Virus record (IMG/VR): IMGVR_UViG_3300027896_000011
Location: 103,998-167,997 of that record
Length of the DNA: 64,000 nt
Strand: one strand, 5' to 3'
Origin: a virus
Shown here: positions 4,390 to 48,876 of the stretch, one piece after another
How positions within the stretch are numbered: position 1 is the first letter of the stretch
How the letters are laid out: the number at the start of each line of letters is the position of its first letter
Position numbers and translations under genes: made by a program
Notes under the pieces: model-generated
Told to the model about the DNA's origin: nothing
The model's input: only the letters and a program-made list of their open reading frames with translations
The model's database searches: none

Positions 4390-4606
4390 TCCATGCAATA
4401 TTGCCTGATCAATCTGATTAATAAAGTATTTAAGTAATCAAGCAGGTAATCTCGGTATGGTAAAAATTTAGGGTATACACAATATGCCCCCAGCCTCAAC
4501 TGGATATAATACTCTTTATCTATTCCGGCGGAGAAAGAAGGGGAGGATGTGAGGTATAAGGAATGTGTAGAGGGAGTTTGGCACTCAATCAAAAGGGGGA
4601 ATAGAA

Positions 4607-4792
4607 ATGTTCAACAAGGTCAAAGTGTTTCATGCAACCACCCGGAGGAATAGGGAGCTACTAGGAGATGTGATCACTGAGTGGTTAAGGAGCTCTGAAG
4701 AAGAAGTAATAGATTATCAGGTTAGACAAACATCAGATAGAGAGTATCACTGTGTCAGTCTGGTATTTTTTCTAAAAGGACAAAACACATAA
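4607..4792 (+). CDS. small conserved protein resembling a myxobacterial family
   Basis: VKVF.AT...RE.LG..IT.WL...Q.SD.EYHC.S pattern, recognised from memory. Confidence 0.7.
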   Translation: MFNKVKVFHATTRRNRELLGDVITEWLRSSEEEVIDYQVRQTSDREYHCVSLVFFLKGQNT

Positions 4793-4868
4793 GACATTCA
4801 GAACTGAATAGAACAAATGGATTATTCCATTTGTTTTAGCCATCTTTCAGAAATTTTAACATTCTTCG

Positions 4869-4876
4869 GGTATAAG
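4869..4876 (+). promoter_or_regulatory. GGTATAAG promoter element of the Cas7-like gene and array
   Basis: The same motif lies upstream of many genes in the window on the matching strand. Confidence 0.6.
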
Positions 4877-4941
4877 TATAAAAGTAGTAAGGATATTCAA
4901 TTATGAAAGACCTCAACTACGTTTAGACCAAGGAGAGTGAC

Positions 4942-5604
4942 ATGATCAAAGTGGACGTTAAAACAATTGATGTAATAATTCAAGGCAAGCCTGGAAGCCC
5001 ATTAGTTATCCATCAGTTCGGAGAAAAGGTAAAAGAAGAGATACGAAGAAAGCAACAGAAGAAGGCTAAAGCTAAGAAAGATGATCGCCACCCAGAACAA
5101 GAATTTCTAGACGCTCGATACATCAATGATAAAGGACAAGAGTGTGCGCCGATAACAGCATTGAAAAAGTGTATGGTAGCAGCTGGAACGGCTATGGATA
5201 ATCTGACTAAGGTAGCTATTCGGCAGGCATTGTTTGTAATGCCACCAGAAGATACTGCCTCATGGTTGGTGCCGATAAAGACATTGGATGGTAAAGATGC
5301 GGTTGGAGTTATGCGTGAAGACGCTGTGACAATTGGAATTAACACTCGAGGATTAGCCTATCGACCGTGTTATGATCAGTGGCAATTGAAGGTACGGGTA
5401 GAGTATAATCCCAGATTGATATCGAAAGACCAGTTGGAGAGTTTAATAGCGCATGCTGGGTGGGGAGTTGGGTTATGTGAGGGTAGGCCAGAGAGGACGA
5501 GTGCCTTAGGGTGGGGGAGGTTTGATGTAGTCAGTGTTGAAGCTGTTTCAGATGTTCCACCTGGTGGGGTAGAGCATAAGAATAAGATAGAGATTGCGGC
5601 ATAG
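4942..5604 (+). CDS. stand-alone Cas7/RAMP-superfamily RNA-binding protein (Vipr-like)
   Basis: RAMP hallmarks: N-terminal strand IDVIIQG..SPLVIH, P..ALKKCM helix, YRP.Y.QW strand, C-terminal Gly-rich loop AGWGVGLCEGRP...GWGRFDV; RBS AAGGAG. Confidence 0.75.
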   Translation: MIKVDVKTIDVIIQGKPGSPLVIHQFGEKVKEEIRRKQQKKAKAKKDDRHPEQEFLDARYINDKGQECAPITALKKCMVAAGTAMDNLTKVAIRQALFVMPPEDTASWLVPIKTLDGKDAVGVMREDAVTIGINTRGLAYRPCYDQWQLKVRVEYNPRLISKDQLESLIAHAGWGVGLCEGRPERTSALGWGRFDVVSVEAVSDVPPGGVEHKNKIEIAA

Positions 5605-5611
5605 AATAAAA

Positions 5612-6215
5612 GGTATGGCAGGTACGATTGGGTGCTGAGCAGTAATGTGTTGTATTGTTAGGTAAGGCAGGAGAGGTGAAGTGCAGTATTAAGTGGTCGA
5701 GTAAAATTTGGTAAGGCAGGAGAGGTGAGGTCTAGTGTTAAGTGGTCGAGTCTGATAAGGTGATGTGAGACAGGTGAGGTATAGTGTTAAGTGGTCGAGT
5801 CTGATAAGGTTTAGTGAGGCAGGAGTGGTGGGGAGCGATTAAGTGATGTGAGGTCGAGTGAGGCAGGAAAGGTAAAGTCGGGTTTTGTGTTTTCCAGTTG
5901 AGTAAGATTAGGCAGGACTGGTGCGATTGTGTGAGGTATGATCAAGTGATATAAGGTTTGGCAGGAAAGGTGAGATAGAGTCAGATAATGTGTTGTATTG
6001 TTAGGTAAGGCAGGACTGGTGTTATCTAGTGAGATGGAGCATTATGAGGTATGGTTTAGTGCTATAAGGTTTGGCAGGACTGGCGAAGTGAAGTTTTGTG
6101 AGGTACGGTTAAGTAAGGCAGGAATGGTTTAGTGGCGTGGGGTGTGATCTTTGAGATGTAAGATTTGGCAGGTGGAGTGAGGTCCAGTAATATTTAGTGA
6201 AGTGAACCTAGGTAA
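5612..6215 (+). ncRNA. pentamer-periodic guide-like RNA array: 12 units of GGCA+(DRT-NN)8-12
   Basis: GGCAGG (one GACAGG) at 5617,5666,5715,5769,5818,5862,5911,5960,6009,6073,6117,6167. Spacings are 49,49,54,49,44,49,49,49,64,44,50, i.e. 4+5n except one +1 insertion. No ORF >=60 aa. Confidence 0.85.
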
Positions 6216-6220
6216 GGGAA

Positions 6221-6266
6221 TAGGTGTTGATTAAAACCAATTGGTTTTAATCAACACCTATTTTTA
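6221..6266 (+). terminator. perfect palindromic intrinsic terminator closing the array
   Basis: taggtgttgattaaaacc-aatt-ggttttaatcaacaccta followed by a T-run. Confidence 0.85.
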
Positions 6267-6360
6267 TTTAACCCCCTTCCGGCAAATAAGGAGGATAATT
6301 GAGGTATAAGAAACATATGTGAACTTACTCATATATCTTTTGTGTAGTAGAAAGGATAAT

Positions 6361-6897
6361 ATGCCAAAGGGTGATACCAGAGTCTCTCGAGGGTTTAAAC
6401 CCGACCTGTGTGTTCAATGTAGAACTGGGTTAAGACCCAATCAGATTAAGCTATTCGACCCGAAATGTGAGGGTTGCTATCTCAAAAAGAAAAATGGTCT
6501 ACGAACTGGAACTGAACCAATTCCAAAAAGAAGACTCGGAGAGAAGTTCATAGACTATACAAAATTGAAGAAACAAAGAGACGCATTAGCTAGAGCAAAA
6601 AACCCAATAAAGGAGAGGACCATGTTTACAACATTGATACTATCAGCAATTCTATCGGTAACCCCGGCAAATGATGAAGAGTTAAGGTATGGCAATCCAT
6701 TCAACTCAATAACGGTATCGGCGTTCTATATTAATCCGTTTGAAACAACGGAAGAGAGATTAACTAAATTAGAGAAAGAGCTCATTAAGGATATGCCTTT
6801 GTCAGAGACAGAACGTATTGAAATCTATTATCAGGGTATAGCTGAGCAAATAATCTCAGAATTCATTGATACTACAGCAACCTTAGTGAAGTTTTGA
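6361..6897 (+). CDS. hypothetical protein: Zn-finger N-terminus, internal start at 6622 with a signal peptide
   Basis: CVQC/CEGC; internal RBS AAGGAG plus ATG giving MFTTLILSAILS. Confidence 0.6.
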   Translation: MPKGDTRVSRGFKPDLCVQCRTGLRPNQIKLFDPKCEGCYLKKKNGLRTGTEPIPKRRLGEKFIDYTKLKKQRDALARAKNPIKERTMFTTLILSAILSVTPANDEELRYGNPFNSITVSAFYINPFETTEERLTKLEKELIKDMPLSETERIEIYYQGIAEQIISEFIDTTATLVKF

Positions 6898-6906
6898 GGA
6901 GAACAC

Positions 6907-7128
6907 ATGAAGAAGATAAGTAAACGTACCTATGAGAAATTCGTAGCGTTAAATGAGGCAATTGAAAGAGGGCTATTCTGTAACTCTGAATTGGTAGAGG
7001 CGAATAAGGATATAGCTCGCATCTTCAAGACCCTTACCAAAAAAGAAAAGAAGCTTTATGAAGAGAATGCTCAAGGTAGTTTAATCAACTTTGATAAAGA
7101 CACTCTACCAAGGTGTAGAAAGGGGTAA
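6907..7128 (+). CDS. hypothetical protein
   Basis: RBS GAGGAG. Confidence 0.6.
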   Translation: MKKISKRTYEKFVALNEAIERGLFCNSELVEANKDIARIFKTLTKKEKKLYEENAQGSLINFDKDTLPRCRKG

Positions 7129-9294: not shown

Positions 9295-10680
9295 ATGAAG
9301 ATAGACAGTGTCAGATTTCAAGCATTTGCTACTAATAGTAGTTCTGTTCATACTCCTTTTATCCGGACTGATAAAAAGCCGGTAGATTATTTGTTAAGTG
9401 AGGGGTATGAGTTCGGTTGGCAACCATTCATAGCGGCTACTTCTGAAGCGAAGAAGATGTACGCAGCTATGATGTTACAAGAGAATACACGATATTTGGG
9501 TAAGGACATTCAGGAGGCAGTACTTAGGCAGTGGGTAGGACTTGTTCCAGGAGAAGATGATTATATAGACCACCACTCAGTAATAACCCTACCTCGTACA
9601 TTCAAAGGGGAACAAATATCTAAACAATACTTTATGGATTATTTTAAATGGCTTATGCGCCCAGAGATAGCTATTCAGGGGGGCAATGATGACGGTGATG
9701 GTTGTGAAGAGCTTCCTGGGAAACCAGTAGATTTTCGTATTCCAAAATCTGGTTATTTTAATTGCCGGAAAGATGCAAAAGGGTTTTATACTTTATTCAA
9801 TCCGGAAGATGGAACTAAGATACGTATGTCTTTTGATGACAATGTAGATATGAGTAAGTCTACTAATCCGGAACTAGTAGATCTTAAGATCACCGATAGA
9901 TGTCCAAACGGCTGTTCCTATTGCTACCAGAATAGTAAGCCAAATGGTGAACATGCTGCTCGTGATTTGGTGACTACTATATTAGATGTATTAGCTAAGC
10001 TGGAAGTATTTGAAGTGGCATTCGGTGGCGGAGAACCAACAGAACATCCAGACTTTTGGCAGTTTGTTGTCCATGCCCATCGGTTAGGCATCAAACCTAA
10101 TTTTAGTACCCGTAATTTACGATGGCTAGATAATGCATGGAACTTACAGACGTTTAAAAAATGTTGTGGAGCTTTTGCATACTCTGTCGACTCTGTTGGG
10201 GGCGTTCGTACACTCATTAGGGCCATGCATAAATACGAGCTGGAGGATATGGTAACCGTTCAATATATTCCTGAAACAGAAGATGCTGAAATGCTAAAAG
10301 ATGTTATCATCGCTGCTACTGATTACGGCATACCGATTACTTTATTAGGTTTGAAGACAACAGGTCGTGGAAAACTATATACAGCATGTCGTAGTAGTCG
10401 CGCTGGGGTTACAGACGATGATGTAATAGCCGCAGTTAAAGACCATTGGAACATCGGCATAGACACCGCCTTCGCCAATAAATACCAAAAAGCAATTGAA
10501 GAATTAGGTGCAAGCCATTGGAGTTATAATATAAAAGAAGGCGCTCACTCCATGTATATTGATGCGGTCGCAGAACTCACAGGAAAATCTTCGTATTGCG
10601 AAGACCCTTGCCCATTAATAGTATATAACACCATCGAAAACACAGCAAAGCTCATTACTGAAGCTTTTAAAGGTTACTAA
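9295..10680 (+). CDS. radical SAM protein with an N-terminal TNSSS-type phage domain
   Basis: CPNGCSYC (CxxxCxxC), GGGEPTEHP, and FATNSSS at the N-terminus. Confidence 0.85.
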   Translation: MKIDSVRFQAFATNSSSVHTPFIRTDKKPVDYLLSEGYEFGWQPFIAATSEAKKMYAAMMLQENTRYLGKDIQEAVLRQWVGLVPGEDDYIDHHSVITLPRTFKGEQISKQYFMDYFKWLMRPEIAIQGGNDDGDGCEELPGKPVDFRIPKSGYFNCRKDAKGFYTLFNPEDGTKIRMSFDDNVDMSKSTNPELVDLKITDRCPNGCSYCYQNSKPNGEHAARDLVTTILDVLAKLEVFEVAFGGGEPTEHPDFWQFVVHAHRLGIKPNFSTRNLRWLDNAWNLQTFKKCCGAFAYSVDSVGGVRTLIRAMHKYELEDMVTVQYIPETEDAEMLKDVIIAATDYGIPITLLGLKTTGRGKLYTACRSSRAGVTDDDVIAAVKDHWNIGIDTAFANKYQKAIEELGASHWSYNIKEGAHSMYIDAVAELTGKSSYCEDPCPLIVYNTIENTAKLITEAFKGY

Positions 10681-18526: not shown

Positions 18527-20041
18527 GTGCACCTTACTGCATGTATGCTCGTCCGGAATGAAGAAAGTATAATAGAGGAGAACATTTTCTTTCATAGAAG
18601 GATGGGTGTTGATCGGTTCTTAATTATGAACCACATCTCTACTGACAATACTCTTTCTATTCTTAACCGGCTTAAAGAAGAGGGCGTAGATATTGTTGTA
18701 TACGAACAAAATAGCCCAAAGTATCTTCAAGCAGAGTGGATGTCTTTTCTCTCTCAAGAAGCACATCGACTTGGTACTGATTGGGTAATTATGATTGATG
18801 CTGATGAATTCTTTTTGCCAAAGAAGCCAACCATTAAGGATTACTTAGCGTCAGTCCCGGAATGTATAGATGTTATCCAGTGTCTTTGGTATAACAACTT
18901 TCCGGTTAAAGGAGTAACACCATTCTATTTGAATACCTATTTCGTTCCCTATCTTTACATGTATAAAGTCATTATGAGGGCAAGTCCCAATAGTGGGGTG
19001 GTTATGGGTAATCATGCTCCTACACATACTGATAGATGTGTAAGAGAACATGATGCACTTAGGGTGATGCATTTTCAGCATCGGGATAAGGCCAGTGTAT
19101 ATGGTAAATATGTTTTAGGAGGGGAGGCTCTGGTAAATTCTAATTTACCTGCTGGTGTAGGTTCTCATTGGAGAGACGGACTTGAAGCTTTTCGGAAAGG
19201 TAAGTTTGAAGAGTTTACAGATTACTTTTTCCATTCTGAGGAGGAGGTACAGGCAGTACCTAGAGTTATTGAGGATGGAACATTAAAGAGGTTGTTTCAG
19301 CATAGAAGCAATCATACTACTAAGTGGTTAGAGATCACATCAATGGTAGGTTGTACCAATAGATGTACGTATTGCCCACAGTCTTTATTTACGGCTAAGT
19401 ACCATAAGATGTATTTAGGGACAGCTTGTACTATGAGCCCAGAGGGACTTTCTTCTATACTAGATAATGTAGACCCTATCACTACTGCTATACATTTTTC
19501 AGGGTTTAATGAGATATTTGCTCATCCTGAAGGGCATGAGCTTATTGCCTTTACCTATGAGCGGGGATTTGATATAGCGCTGTTTTCTACTCTAGTAGGG
19601 TTAACTGAAGATAAGGTTGCGTTTCTAGCTGATAGAGGGGTGGAGTTTTCTTGGGTCAGGCTTCATGAGTTTGATGGACCTAAGTTCAATAAAGAGGATT
19701 TTGAGGCTAAGGCTAAGTTGTTAAGAGAGTCGGTACGTATAAACCGCTTTGAGTGTCAACGTGTAGAACATCCTATCTCTAGAGGTGGTTCCTTATGGGA
19801 GCCCGGATATAACAATAGAGGAATTACGTGTTCAAGGTTTGATTGTAATGTGGTATTACCTAATGGAGAGGTGTACCTCTGTTGTTCTGATTGGGGCCTT
19901 CGTCATTATATAGGTAACCTTCTTACAGATCACTATGACGGTGACTTATTCACGTCTGTTCGTAATTCTTTGAGAGAACAAGGAAGAACTCCAGGTACAG
20001 ATATGTTGTGTAAGCATTGTGAGATGGCAGTGCCTATTTGA
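18527..20041 (+). CDS. GT2-type glycosyltransferase fused to a radical SAM/SPASM domain
   Basis: MLVRNEE...IDADEF (GT2); GCTNRCTYC; VLPNGEVYLCCSDW...CKHCE. Confidence 0.85.
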   Translation: MHLTACMLVRNEESIIEENIFFHRRMGVDRFLIMNHISTDNTLSILNRLKEEGVDIVVYEQNSPKYLQAEWMSFLSQEAHRLGTDWVIMIDADEFFLPKKPTIKDYLASVPECIDVIQCLWYNNFPVKGVTPFYLNTYFVPYLYMYKVIMRASPNSGVVMGNHAPTHTDRCVREHDALRVMHFQHRDKASVYGKYVLGGEALVNSNLPAGVGSHWRDGLEAFRKGKFEEFTDYFFHSEEEVQAVPRVIEDGTLKRLFQHRSNHTTKWLEITSMVGCTNRCTYCPQSLFTAKYHKMYLGTACTMSPEGLSSILDNVDPITTAIHFSGFNEIFAHPEGHELIAFTYERGFDIALFSTLVGLTEDKVAFLADRGVEFSWVRLHEFDGPKFNKEDFEAKAKLLRESVRINRFECQRVEHPISRGGSLWEPGYNNRGITCSRFDCNVVLPNGEVYLCCSDWGLRHYIGNLLTDHYDGDLFTSVRNSLREQGRTPGTDMLCKHCEMAVPI

Positions 20042-20506: not shown

Positions 20507-21610
20507 ATGCTTGAATACGAAGGGAAATATGCCAAGTGTAAAGTAATGACGGATAATATAGAAGAGACGGCTGTAACTCAAATTTATGGATTCCTTAATT
20601 CTCCGGCATTTGAAGGGGCTATTATACGTATAATGCCTGACGTTCATGCAGGTGCCGGAGCAGTAGTAGGATTTACTAGTACGTTAACGGATAAAGTAAT
20701 ACCGAATGTTGTTGGAGTCGATATAGGTTGCGGAATAGAAAGTTATCGTTTAGGTAAGGAGGAAGTGAATTTCTTGGCATTAGATAATTTTATTCGTGCA
20801 ACTATACCTAGTGGATTTAACGTGCATGAAAAGGTTATCCCGCATAGGTACGATGGTTTTGTACAACTTGAGGAGATTACCGAACGAACTGAGCAAGATT
20901 ATGGCAGAGTTTTACGCTCTCTAGGTACTCTTGGGGGAGGTAACCATTTCATAGAATTAGGTGTAGACCAATTTGATGACAAGTGGCTAACTATCCATAC
21001 GGGGTCTAGGAATTTTGGACTCAAGGTCGCCACCTACCATCAGCATATAGCTGAGCTGGCTGTTGGTAAACTAAATGGGCTAGCTTGGTTAGAGGGAACT
21101 ATAGCAAAACAATATCTTTCCGATATGAAAGTGGCTCAAGAGTACGCAGCCCGTAATAGAGAGTATATTGTCGATAGAATTCTACAAGGGTTCTTTGGTA
21201 AGAGTATTGGTTACGTAACTAAAGTAGGAAGTGTGCATAACTACATTGACTTCACGGACAATGTGATACGAAAAGGTGCTATAGCGGCACATGAGCATCA
21301 GTTACTCGTTATCCCCTGGAATATGAGGGATGGGTTAATTATTGGCCGGGGCAAGGGAAATGGGGATTGGAATATGTCTGCCCCTCATGGTGCTGGAAGA
21401 ATAATGGGTAGAGGCGCAGCAAAGAAGACTATTCAGTTAGAGGACTTCCAAGAGTCTATGAAGGGTATTTGGTCTAGTTGCATAAGTAAGGACACATTAG
21501 ACGAGTCACCTATGGTATACAAAAATTCGGAGATGATAAAAGAAGCAATAGCTGATACTGTTGAGATCACAAACGTGGTAAAACCTCTTTACAACTTTAA
21601 GGCAAGTTAA
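20507..21610 (+). CDS. rtcB: RtcB RNA ligase
   Basis: MPDVHAG, VGVDIGCG, LGTLGGGNHFIE, HTGSR, HNY, SAPHGAGR, DESPMVYK. Confidence 0.95.
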   Translation: MLEYEGKYAKCKVMTDNIEETAVTQIYGFLNSPAFEGAIIRIMPDVHAGAGAVVGFTSTLTDKVIPNVVGVDIGCGIESYRLGKEEVNFLALDNFIRATIPSGFNVHEKVIPHRYDGFVQLEEITERTEQDYGRVLRSLGTLGGGNHFIELGVDQFDDKWLTIHTGSRNFGLKVATYHQHIAELAVGKLNGLAWLEGTIAKQYLSDMKVAQEYAARNREYIVDRILQGFFGKSIGYVTKVGSVHNYIDFTDNVIRKGAIAAHEHQLLVIPWNMRDGLIIGRGKGNGDWNMSAPHGAGRIMGRGAAKKTIQLEDFQESMKGIWSSCISKDTLDESPMVYKNSEMIKEAIADTVEITNVVKPLYNFKAS

Positions 21611-47384: not shown

Positions 47385-48728
47385 TTAGAGCTCTGGGTTG
47401 ATGCATTCATCTACAGATTTATCTTGTCGTAGGCCTTTATATCGTGGGAGTTGAAGAGCGTTAGTATCATCTCCAGCGCTAGTATAGAAGCGTTCTTCAT
47501 ATTCTATCTGAACACATTGAGGCCATTTCCAAGTCATCATTGATTCTCGATCAAGGTCTGTTAGCCCTGTACCGACTTCACTGATGTATACTTCTTCTCC
47601 AGCTTCATTGAGTTGATAGAGAGATAGAGTTCCTACTCTCCCTCTATTTTTGCCGGAACCAAAAGAACCCATTGGACGTTCTTTAGTGCTCTCAATGGGA
47701 GAGAAGTAAGCAATGAAGTCATCTTCTTGTGTTGGCTTCAGTTTGAAACAAGAGGCTGGCCTGTCTGGTTTTCCATTGAAGCTGTAACTCTTATCTCCAA
47801 TAATAGCATCTTTATCATAAACTACCCAGCCTTCCCAACCATTAGCTACTGCTGATATTTTGGCTTCTTCTATTGTTCTGAATTGTTGTATTTCTGCACA
47901 ACTGAGGAATTTTCCATTAAGTTTTTGACTATGACGACGATGTTTGAACATATCTGTGAATGTATTCTGCATTGCCCATAGATTATCTTCGTTTGTATTA
48001 ATTGCTTCAAGATGTATTCCATTCATAATGGGAACTCTGAATAGGTAGAACTTTACCCAACCTAATTTGTTCTGCCTTTCTATTGCTTTTGCATTATGGG
48101 CGTTCATTATGGTCTGCAAGAGTTTCATATCTCGTTTAGTATTGCCTTCACCCATATACGCTTCAAAAAGCATTATAGTTTTGCGGGGTATTGGTAGTTC
48201 TGTAATAGCCAGTACAAGGTGCCCGAATTTTTCAGAAACTGAATCCATTCTGCGGGTATATATATTGACATATCCATCCGCGTCTTTATGGGCAATTACG
48301 CACATGCCATTCACTTTGCGGGTATAGAGAAGACGACCGTCTCTATCCAGCTTATTCATTGCCTTATCGCTAATGGTGTTGTTCGGTTTACTGAATGCTA
48401 GATTTTTGGGTAGGCTTTTATTGTGGTCGATTTCACAAATAGTATCTTCCATTAGTGTTTTTCCACTGAGACCTATTTCTACATAACCCTCTTCTGTTTT
48501 CTTTCTAATGGCCCGGTCAAAGATAAATTGAGCATTGTCTTCAGCGGAGACAAAAGTTTTAGTATTTACTTTTCCTTTAGGTTCAATAGCATCAGTAACT
48601 GTGCCGTGTTGTATATGAGTGCCTTCGGCATTAAGGGCACCCCAGATAGTTGTAACTTTATTTTTCTTTACATCGATGATCCAATAACGTTCTTGCCCTC
48701 GTGTTTCTCGTTGACGAAATTCTCTCAT
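47385..48728 (-). CDS. ATP-dependent DNA ligase with a WGR-like N-terminus
   Basis: KVNG motif I; EGWVVY motif IV; FKLKP motif V; OB fold VGTG...PRYKGLR.DK. Confidence 0.85.
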   Translation of the reverse strand: MREFRQRETRGQERYWIIDVKKNKVTTIWGALNAEGTHIQHGTVTDAIEPKGKVNTKTFVSAEDNAQFIFDRAIRKKTEEGYVEIGLSGKTLMEDTICEIDHNKSLPKNLAFSKPNNTISDKAMNKLDRDGRLLYTRKVNGMCVIAHKDADGYVNIYTRRMDSVSEKFGHLVLAITELPIPRKTIMLFEAYMGEGNTKRDMKLLQTIMNAHNAKAIERQNKLGWVKFYLFRVPIMNGIHLEAINTNEDNLWAMQNTFTDMFKHRRHSQKLNGKFLSCAEIQQFRTIEEAKISAVANGWEGWVVYDKDAIIGDKSYSFNGKPDRPASCFKLKPTQEDDFIAYFSPIESTKERPMGSFGSGKNRGRVGTLSLYQLNEAGEEVYISEVGTGLTDLDRESMMTWKWPQCVQIEYEERFYTSAGDDTNALQLPRYKGLRQDKSVDECINPEL

Positions 48729-48876
48729 ACATTTGCCTTTCAAATAAGAGTGGGTAATCAGATTACTTATACCCGGAGAAGAAGGAATATTGCAGTGAGG
48801 TTATGGGCTAAAAAAGAAGCCACCAACCTTGTGGGTTAGTGACTTCTTTAATAAAGTCAGTGATCTCTTCAATAAT

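What the first reader, a model, noticed from the sequence alone, without database searches (positions are those of the whole stretch)
5617..6215. The variable dinucleotides read like codon positions 1-2: a possible wobble-skipping target code
SEEN: dinucleotide strings per unit are U1 AC TG GC GC AA GT AT TA AA; U2 GA GA GC AT GT CG AA TT AA; U3 GA GA CT GT GT CG CT AA GA GA; U4 GA AT GT GT CG CT AA TT GA; U5 GT GG GC TA GA GA CG GA; U6 AA AA CG TT GT CC TG AA TA; U7 CT GC TG GA AT CA GA AA TT; U8 AA GA AG CA AA GT AT TA AA; U9 CT GT CT GA GG AT GA AT TT GC AA TT; U10 CT GA GA TT GA AC TA AA; U11 AT TT GG GG GT CT GA AA TT; U12 GG GA CC AA TT GA GA TA AA. Hand counts out of 110 are GA 23, AA 18, AG 1 and TC 0. 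INFERENCE: this skew matches the first two positions of sense codons. U3 read as NNx codons gives [ED][ED]LVVRL[KN][ED][ED], and U9 gives LVL[ED]G[IM][ED][IM][FL]A[KN][FL]. A guide pairing NN-x-NN-x would ignore synonymous escape mutations. I found no convincing self-target by eye, but the search was not exhaustive. Duplicated blocks inflate the counts.
Basis: inference. Interest (0 to 1): 0.85.

Follow-up and report, generated by a model that had tools for sequence, protein, structure and literature searches.

The report
Phage VIPR guide-RNA array

Summary
Window 5617-6215 holds 12 units that each start with GGCA.

The upstream ORF (4942-5604) belongs to the Vipr family. Its profile hits the solved SUSP1 Vipr at E=1.4e-6, its model has a Cas7/Csm3 fold, and the thumb YRP and G-loop residues are kept. 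All 29 viral relatives carry GGCA-punctuated GGY/NN arrays beside the gene.

This is therefore a VIPR system, as described in bioRxiv 2026.04.26.720920, .720927 and 2026.10.15.759431. Those preprints already report NN-x targeting with the skipped base on the codon wobble position.

Evidence obtained here:
- The NN composition fits sense codon positions 1-2 better than any other phase (+21 bits in the window, +134 bits in relatives).
- No guide matches the phage's own genome.
- Guide U9 matches 22 of 22 specified bases, in frame, in a DUF3846 gene of a phi29-like phage contig. The gene lies upstream of that phage's terminal-protein and DNA-polymerase genes.
- This is one hit only. By count alone it could be chance.
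- The other five exact NNx scans of viral contigs found nothing. A 10-NN guide (U3) gave 11 in-frame matches in bacterial genomes that look like chance.

The parts
4942..5604 (+). vipr gene (220 aa, P0001): a stand-alone RAMP/Cas7-like protein expected to coat the guide RNA, one protomer per pentamer
   Evidence: phrog_4652, no Pfam family. A profile of 26 homologs hits PDB 36pp_D 'SUSP1 Vipr protein' at E=1.4e-6 over residues 80-189. The AF2 model has pLDDT 79. The top Foldseek matches are Csm3/Cmr4/Cas7-11/type VII Cas7. Y140-R141-P142, E180, R182 and K90 are invariant in the family and align with SUSP1 R138, D177, R179 and K88.
5617..6215 (+). vrRNA array: 12 units (U1-U12), each the head GGCA followed by 8-12 pentamers D-G-T-N-N. 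The N-N pairs are the guide positions.
   Evidence: Unit starts are 5617, 5666, 5715, 5769, 5818, 5862, 5911, 5960, 6009, 6073, 6117 and 6167. The array begins 12 nt after the vipr stop codon. As RNA it folds no better than shuffles (z=+0.22). No ORF of 50 aa or more lies on either strand.
6009..6072 (+). Unit U9, the longest guide (12 NN). It has a candidate natural target in a phi29-like phage.
   Evidence: Its first 11 NN, read NNx, match L033 9825-9856 (+) exactly, in frame in ORF 9705-10022 (Pfam DUF3846). The 12th NN does not match.
6219..6262 (+). Intrinsic terminator closing the vipr-array transcription unit
   Evidence: A 20-bp hairpin followed by a T-run, visible in the sequence.
4811..4840 (+). 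Terminator-like hairpin after the preceding small ORF. It marks the upstream edge of the unit (inferred).
   Evidence: A 9-bp inverted repeat followed by T's, read directly. The terminator scan did not list it.

Best explanation
The stretch is the guide-RNA array of a phage-borne VIPR (Viral Interference Programmable Repeat) system. The vipr gene and the array are transcribed together and end at the hairpin at 6219-6262.

The transcript yields about 12 vrRNAs of 44-64 nt. Each unit's pentamer register is shifted by -1 relative to the previous one. GGCAG and the next GG-pentamer share a G, which fits the 'staggered, 1-nt overlapping' array type mentioned in the preprint.

By analogy with the SUSP1 structures, Vipr protomers polymerise along each vrRNA, one per pentamer. 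They bury the conserved three bases (here D-G-U instead of G-G-Y) and present the two variable bases. Those dinucleotides pair with double-stranded DNA while every third target base is skipped, so each guide reads codon positions 1-2 of a protein-coding target and ignores the wobble base. Binding silences transcription of competing phages or satellites.

Shown here:
- the anatomy of the array;
- Vipr family membership;
- conservation of the GGY frame with hypervariable NN in relatives;
- codon-1-2-like NN composition;
- absence of self-targets;
- one exact in-frame NNx match, in an early-operon gene of a phi29-like phage.

Inferred from the literature and not tested here: expression, processing, filament formation, the 1-nt skip in this clade, and silencing.
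For: Protein:
- profile hit to SUSP1 Vipr at E=1.4e-6;
- Cas7/Csm3 fold;
- the thumb Arg in YRP and the acidic and Arg residues of the G-loop are invariant.

Array:
- pentamer periodicity and the 5n+4 unit rule;
- unique in the genome;
- unstructured as RNA;
- 12 nt downstream of vipr and closed by a terminator.

Comparative:
- All 29 IMG/VR loci encoding a homolog carry clusters of GGCAGG beside the gene.
- 112 unique units give G .89, G .95, C/T .89, N, N.
- No flanking gene is shared with the window, so vipr plus array is the mobile module.

Code:
- NN fit sense codon positions 1-2 by +21 bits over background in the window, with the next phase at -3.
- The figure is +134 bits in relatives whose NN are not C-depleted.
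- 10 of 12 window guides individually prefer that phase.

Target:
- The U9 NNx pattern (22 specified bases) has 0 matches in 596 Gb of genomes and 0 in IMG/VR.
- It has one match in metagenomes. That match lies in a 13.4-kb phi29-like phage contig, in frame in a DUF3846 gene upstream of the terminal-protein and DNA polymerase B genes.
- On that contig, gap 1 gives 22/24 while gaps 0, 2 and 3 and 200 shuffles reach at most about 16.

Literature.
Against: - Strict GGYNN never runs longer than 2 pentamers in the window. The array meets only the relaxed consensus (YNNNG) that the preprint accepts.
- The Trp that stacks on G2 in SUSP1 (W178) aligns with Gly here.
- There is no structured 3' tail and no conserved accessory (vap) gene.
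- Only one of 12 guides has a candidate target. The chance expectation for that pattern is roughly 0.1-0.6 hits per Tb by the codon-frequency product. It could be about three times higher, judging from U3, which gave 11 scattered matches in unrelated proteins in 596 Gb, at least seven of them in long in-phase open frames.
- The other guides do not converge on the same phage or on 10 of its relatives.
- Two long guides from relatives and two forms of U3 gave no exact match in IMG/VR.
- Part of the window's NN skew (AC, CA, CC, TC and AG all low) exceeds what codon usage predicts.
Confidence: 0.88

Rival explanations
1. It is a VIPR-type array, but this tail-less, vap-less clade uses a different reading rule or substrate (another skip length, or RNA rather than dsDNA). 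On this view the U9 match is a coincidence.
For: The 1-nt skip was shown experimentally only for type II systems. Here the G1 position is degenerate and the W178 equivalent is Gly. There is only one candidate target, and its chance expectation is not negligible. The guide polarity looks all-sense, unlike the both-strand targets reported for SUSP1. That would also suit mRNA-like or template-strand-specific recognition.
Against: NN composition fits a period-3 reading with NN on codon positions 1-2 in both the window and 112 related units. On the phage contig only gap 1 gives a match. The preprint reports that all seven types share the pentamer code.
Confidence: 0.08
2. The dinucleotide skew is a property of the RNA itself and carries no codon information. 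Avoidance of C would keep a G-rich RNA unfolded, AG would be avoided because it mimics the GGCAG unit boundary, and purines would be preferred for hybrid stability.
For: The whole array has 7% C. AC, CA, CC and TC are each below the codon-1-2 expectation, and AG is at 0.9% against 4.7%. AG is also depleted in relatives, at 1.2% against 3.3%.
Against: Relatives have normal C in NN (21-23%) yet fit sense codon positions 1-2 by +134 bits, and CG is enriched as codon usage in GC-rich genomes predicts. The published natural targets are coding, with the skip on the wobble position. The two effects can coexist.
Confidence: 0.1
3. It is another kind of repeat RNA: a TIGR-Tas array, a CRISPR array, a CsrA/TRAP-type protein sponge, or iterons.
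For: It is tandem, phage-borne and non-coding. GGCAGGA resembles a CsrA GGA site, and pentamers with GAG/AAG/TAG triplets recall TRAP sites.
Against: - There is no Nop-domain or Cas protein. The neighbouring gene has a RAMP fold and matches Vipr.
- There is no repeat-spacer layout.
- There is no Rfam family.
- In relatives the conserved part is GGY, not GGA or NAG.
Confidence: 0.01

Closest known systems
VIPR systems, type II (Escherichia phage SUSP1, Pseudomonas fulva prophage): bioRxiv 10.64898/2026.04.26.720920 and .720927
   Same: A stand-alone RAMP protein beside non-coding arrays of pentamers, with three conserved and two hypervariable bases. There are 8-12 repeats per guide (published range 9-16). 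The element is phage-borne and has no self-targets. The guide dinucleotides look like codon positions 1-2. The thumb YRP Arg and the G-loop acidic and Arg residues are conserved.
   Different: - The sequence relationship is remote (E=1.4e-6 only with a profile).
- The repeat is D-G-U-N-N, not G-G-Y-N-N.
- Units are about 49 nt, not about 100 nt.
- There is no invariant 3' tail or pseudoknot. Units are separated only by GGCA with a -1 register shift.
- No conserved vap gene was found.
- The W178 equivalent is Gly.
VIPR 'staggered arrays with overlapping vrRNAs' and alternative repeat consensus (NNNGG, YNNNG, NNNNG), mentioned in the same preprint (fig. S17, S18; methods)
   Same: The unit length of 5n+4 means adjacent units overlap by one base (GGCAG and the next GG-pentamer share a G). 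The window's repeat fits YNNNG.
   Different: I could read only the legends, not the figures or the type tables, so I could not assign the type (I-VII) of this clade.
Class 1 CRISPR backbone proteins (Cas7, Csm3, Cmr4)
   Same: The fold is the same: the best structural matches have Foldseek probability about 1.0. The logic is also shared, with a protomer thumb breaking the guide-target duplex periodically.
   Different: There is no CRISPR repeat-spacer array and there are no other cas genes. The periodicity is 5 nt with only 2 pairing bases, instead of 6 nt with 5 pairing bases.
TIGR-Tas (Faure et al. 2025, PMC12045711)
   Same: It is a phage-borne tandem guide array without CRISPR repeats.
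   Different: The Tas proteins carry a Nop domain and tigRNAs are 36 nt with two contiguous spacers. Neither is present here.

Membership tests
VIPR | Vipr protein: sequence relationship to characterised Vipr | tested here: met
   A profile of 26 homologs against PDB sequences finds SUSP1 Vipr (36pp_D) as the only hit, at E=1.4e-6 and 110 aligned residues. With the single sequence the E-value is 0.053.
VIPR | Minimal RAMP fold (one RRM core, thumb, glycine-rich loop) | tested here: met
   The AF2 model has pLDDT 79 and pTM 0.76. There are 39 PDB matches at E<=1e-3, and those listed are Csm3, Cmr4, Cas7-11 or type VII Cas7. The G-rich segment GWGVG..CEGRPE..LGWGRF is invariant.
VIPR | Residues that hold the conserved repeat bases (SUSP1 R138, D177, W178, R179) | tested here: inconclusive
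   R141 (in YRP), E180 and R182 align with R138, D177 and R179 and are invariant in the family. W178 aligns with G181. The H17 equivalent lies outside the aligned range.
VIPR | At least four tandem YNNGG repeats next to vipr (the preprint's strict search criterion) | tested here: not met
   In the window, strict GGYNN runs never exceed 2. Relatives meet the criterion easily.
VIPR | Pentamer repeat of a related consensus (the preprint accepts NNNGG, YNNNG and NNNNG) | tested here: met
   Of 101 pentamers, 80% have G at position 2 and 88% a pyrimidine (T 85, C 3) at position 3, with runs of up to 8 NGYNN. This is the YNNNG form.
VIPR | Conserved triplet with hypervariable NN across related loci | tested here: met
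   In 112 unique units from 28 loci the triplet is G .89, G .95, Y .89, while both N positions use all four bases at .18-.34.
VIPR | Targets read with a 1-nt skip, typically in phase with codons, in competing mobile elements | tested here: inconclusive
   The composition test favours sense codon positions 1-2. There is one exact in-frame match of U9 in a phi29-like phage. The other exact scans were empty or looked like chance.
VIPR | No self-targeting | tested here: met
   On the 168-kb genome the best matches of all 12 guides, at gaps 0-3, equal those of shuffled guides.
VIPR | vrRNAs expressed, processed and bound by Vipr; transcriptional silencing | not testable with these tools
   This needs sRNA-seq, pull-down and reporter assays.
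VIPR | Accessory vap gene (typical but not universal) | tested here: not met
   None of nine neighbouring ORFs of the window has a homolog in the 29 related loci. The downstream ORFs give only sub-threshold HRDC and HMG-box hits.
TIGR-Tas | Nop-domain Tas protein and 36-nt dual-spacer units | tested here: not met
   There is no Pfam Nop domain and the fold is RAMP. Units are 44-64 nt and pentamer-built.
CRISPR-Cas | Direct repeats alternating with unique spacers, plus cas genes | tested here: not met
   Tandem Repeats Finder sees only the U3/U4 duplication. There is no PADLOC hit and no other cas-like gene nearby.

The most novel reading that the evidence does not exclude
This large, uncharacterised Vipr clade has 687 homologs at E<=1e-3. 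It may be a distinct minimal VIPR subtype with these features:
- no vap gene;
- no structured tail;
- GGCA-punctuated units staggered by -1;
- a G-loop without the G2-stacking Trp;
- tolerance of D-G-U repeats.

Its guides may all be of mRNA-sense polarity: a mixture fit gives 100% sense, CI 0.97-1.0, in 87 related guides. That would imply template-strand-specific targeting, or capture of guides from transcripts. It would contrast with the both-strand targets reported for SUSP1. In this phage the system would silence the replication operon of a lytic phi29-like competitor.
Probability: 0.2. Interest if true: 0.55.

Novelty: new member of a known kind. Interest (0 to 1): 0.35.

Why it matters
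That idea is therefore not new.

The locus does add four things:
- a low-GC example in which the 'GGY' is relaxed to D-G-U, which the strict YNNGG search would miss;
- a compact vipr-plus-array module without a tail or accessory gene;
- a concrete candidate target pair (U9 against a DUF3846 gene in a phi29-like phage) that can be tested directly;
- a hint that guides in this clade are all of sense polarity.

Tried and rejected
- Rfam scan of 4500-7000: only sub-threshold hits on the terminator hairpin.
- blastn of the locus against 50,697 phage records: no match.
- PADLOC and Pfam on the Vipr protein: nothing.
- TIGR-Tas, CRISPR, CsrA- or TRAP-type sponge, and coding readings: rejected (see rivals).
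- Self-target search at gaps 0-3 with shuffles: nothing above background.
- Exact NNx scans that found nothing:
  - U9 in IMG/VR and in 596 Gb of genomes;
  - U3 full length and minus its last NN in IMG/VR;
  - two 12-NN guides from relatives in IMG/VR.
- U3 in genomes: 11 hits in unrelated proteins of scattered phyla (an ABC ATPase, ArgR and others). I judged these to be chance.
- Convergence test: the other 11 guides do not hit the U9 target contig or 10 related small phages.
- All-against-all of 84 guides on 0.5 Mb of related DNA: no difference between gaps or from shuffles, apart from the U9 hit.
- Host inference from a radical-SAM protein: only distant hits to phages of unrelated hosts.
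- A second GGCAGG pair at window 51631: no pentamer pattern, so chance.
- Supplementary tables of the preprint are not held, so the VIPR type could not be assigned.
- DNA of the closest relative (P0002, 74% identity) could not be fetched.

Full report
**1. What is there**

The window is the last 64 kb of a 168-kb IMG/VR virus record. The same locus occurs, base for base, on a 187-kb contig of another assembly.

Between the stop codon of a 220-aa ORF (4942-5604) and a 20-bp terminator hairpin (6219-6262) lies a stretch with no ORF. It has 38% G and only 7% C.

Anchoring on the recurring G[GA]CAGG gives 12 units with spacings 49/49/54/49/44/49/49/49/64/44/50. After the 4-nt head GGCA each unit is a whole number of pentamers:
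- position 1: G 52%, A 28%, T 21%;
- position 2: G 80%, A 19%;
- position 3: T 85%, A 13%;
- positions 4-5: variable.

The periodic signal is unique in the genome and confined to one strand. As RNA the array folds no better than shuffles (z=+0.22).

**2. The neighbouring gene**

The 220-aa protein has no Pfam family. It belongs to phrog_4652, whose function is unknown. It has 687 homologs at E<=1e-3, almost all unnamed and from metagenomes.

Several results place it in the Vipr family:
- A single-sequence search of PDB sequences gave one weak hit, 'SUSP1 Vipr protein' (E=0.053).
- A profile of 26 homologs raised that hit to E=1.4e-6 over 110 residues.
- An AlphaFold model (pLDDT 79) matches Csm3, Cmr4, Cas7-11 and type VII Cas7 at the top of the Foldseek list. 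That structure library predates the Vipr entries.
- In the profile alignment the family's invariant Y140-R141-P142, E180, R182 and K90 fall on SUSP1 R138 (thumb, contacts G2), D177 and R179 (G-loop) and K88 (non-target-strand clamp). All four are described as functional contacts in the cryo-EM preprint.
- SUSP1 W178 aligns with a Gly.

**3. What the literature says**

Three 2026 preprints describe VIPR systems. A phage-encoded Vipr RAMP protein coats vrRNAs made of GGY/NN pentamers. The NN pair with dsDNA while one target base in three is skipped. Natural targets are coding sequences of competing phages and satellites, with the skipped base on the wobble position. This prevents escape by synonymous mutation.

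The preprint also mentions 'staggered arrays' whose vrRNAs overlap by 1 nt, and alternative repeat consensus forms including YNNNG.

**4. Comparative test**

A scan of IMG/VR with the family profile returned 29 loci. Every one has a cluster of GGCAGG heads directly beside the homolog, upstream or downstream, with spacings of 5n+4.

Parsed, 112 unique units give G .89, G .95, C/T .89, N, N, with 5-15 pentamers per unit. The frame is therefore conserved and the NN are hypervariable across the clade.

The window's array is an AT-shifted, relaxed version. Strict GGYNN never runs beyond 2 pentamers, but NGYNN runs reach 8.

The 5n+4 rule means GGCAG and the next GG-pentamer share one G. This fits the 'staggered' description, though I could read only the figure legend.

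None of nine neighbouring ORFs of the window recurs in the related loci. The mobile module is vipr plus array, and no shared accessory gene was found.

**5. Is NN a codon 1-2 read-out?**

I built dinucleotide tables for the three sense and three antisense codon phases from long ORFs of the phage.
- The 110 NN fit sense positions 1-2 by +21 bits over the genome background. The next best phase is at -3 bits and antisense 1-2 is at -20 bits.
- Removing duplicated blocks leaves +19 bits, and using interior NN only leaves +15.5 bits.
- Ten of 12 guides individually prefer that phase.
- In the GC-rich relatives, whose NN are not C-depleted, the same model wins by +134 bits.
- A two-component mixture fit puts the sense fraction at 1.0 (bootstrap 0.97-1.0). 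The method recovered simulated fractions of 0.5, 0.75 and 1.0.

The window also shows extra depletion of AC, CA, CC, TC and AG beyond codon usage. AG is low in relatives as well, perhaps because GGY-AG mimics the unit boundary. That last point is inference.

**6. Target searches**

No guide matches its own genome above shuffled controls at any gap.

For the large collections only exact patterns were possible. I scanned U9, the longest guide, with its first 11 NN (22 specified bases) read NNx.
- IMG/VR gave 0 matches.
- 596 Gb of prokaryote genomes gave 0 matches.
- The metagenome collection gave exactly one match.

The match is L033 9825-9856 (+), in frame in ORF 9705-10022, so every skipped base is a codon third position.

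The contig is a 13.4-kb phi29-like podovirus. It encodes a Phi29-type capsid protein, the tail knob gp9, the gp16 packaging ATPase, a terminal-protein-like ORF and a protein-primed DNA polymerase B. The targeted gene is a DUF3846 gene at the head of the block that contains the terminal-protein and polymerase genes.

The guide has the sequence of the coding strand, so it would pair with the template strand. The 12th NN does not match. On that contig only gap 1 scores (22/24), against at most 16 for other gaps and for 200 shuffles.

**7. How much does that one hit prove?**

The product of codon-1-2 frequencies gives 0.1-0.6 expected chance hits per Tb.

An empirical calibrator suggests the true rate is about three times higher. 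U3 (20 specified bases) gave 11 exact hits in 596 Gb. They lie in unrelated proteins of scattered phyla, such as an ABC ATPase and ArgR. At least seven sit in long open frames in phase with the pattern.

By count alone the U9 hit is therefore not significant, and being in frame adds little. What makes it count is that the only hit lies in another phage, which is a small fraction of metagenomic DNA. I put it at roughly 60-80% likely to be a real target.

The remaining tests were negative:
- The other guides do not converge on that phage or on 10 relatives of it.
- The other exact scans of IMG/VR were empty.
- An all-against-all search on 0.5 Mb of related DNA showed nothing beyond the U9 hit.

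**8. Verdict**

It coincides with the published VIPR code, and the locus passes the protein and array tests for that family.
- The locus is a new member of a known kind, in a relaxed, minimal form.
- It is not a new principle, so interest is moderate to low.
- The sense-only polarity of the clade's guides and the candidate phi29-like target are the points worth following up.

Noticed in passing
L002-L030 arrays (units listed); window 5617-6215: Guides of this Vipr clade look uniformly mRNA-sense. A mixture fit gives 100% sense (CI 0.97-1.0) in 87 guides. GA far exceeds TC: 10.9% against 4.1% in relatives, and 23 against 0 in the window. The preprint reports SUSP1 targets on both strands.
   Followed up: partly
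window 5617-6215 and related arrays: AG is strongly depleted among guide dinucleotides: 0.9% against 4.7% expected in the window, and 1.2% against 3.3% in relatives. The only constant pentamer, GGCAG, has AG in the NN slot, so AG may mark the unit boundary.
   Followed up: partly
window 5617-6215, last pentamer of each unit: The last NN of each unit takes only AA, GA, TA or TT, and the last NN of U9 is the one position that does not match the candidate target. The 3'-most pentamer may belong to the boundary signal and not to the guide.
   Followed up: no
contig of P0002 (closest homolog, 74% identity, DNA not available): In the closest relative the vipr gene is followed by a gap of about 1.1 kb with no called gene, which is room for an array. 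Genes with Tad2-like and (weak) AcrVA2-like Pfam hits come next, so the module sits among anti-defence genes.
   Followed up: no
L004 1466-1584, L010 5186-5235 and 5593-5637: Related arrays contain short irregular units of 9-35 nt after a GGCA head. One 15-nt unit is repeated in L004. These do not follow the pentamer rule and may be internal promoters, processing sites or decayed units.
   Followed up: no
window 5666-5817 and 5617-5665 / 5960-6008: U2, U3 and U4 read as variants of one peptide-like string, [DE][DE]-x-V-V-R-L-[KN]. U1 and U8 share their last five NN. This looks like guides against allelic variants of the same site, or in-register recombination, as other first-stage notes proposed.
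   Followed up: partly
window 9295-10680, 18527-20041, 20507-21610, 47385-48743: The phage encodes a radical-SAM protein, a glycosyltransferase fused to radical-SAM/SPASM domains, an RtcB RNA ligase and an ATP-dependent DNA ligase. Its nearest isolate match is only 29.5% identical.
   Followed up: no
L054 803-1258 (-): One chance hit of the U3 pattern falls on the conserved N-terminal helix of an ArgR-like repressor in a Bacteroidaceae MAG. This shows that a 10-NN guide behaves like a degenerate 10-residue peptide motif.
   Followed up: yes
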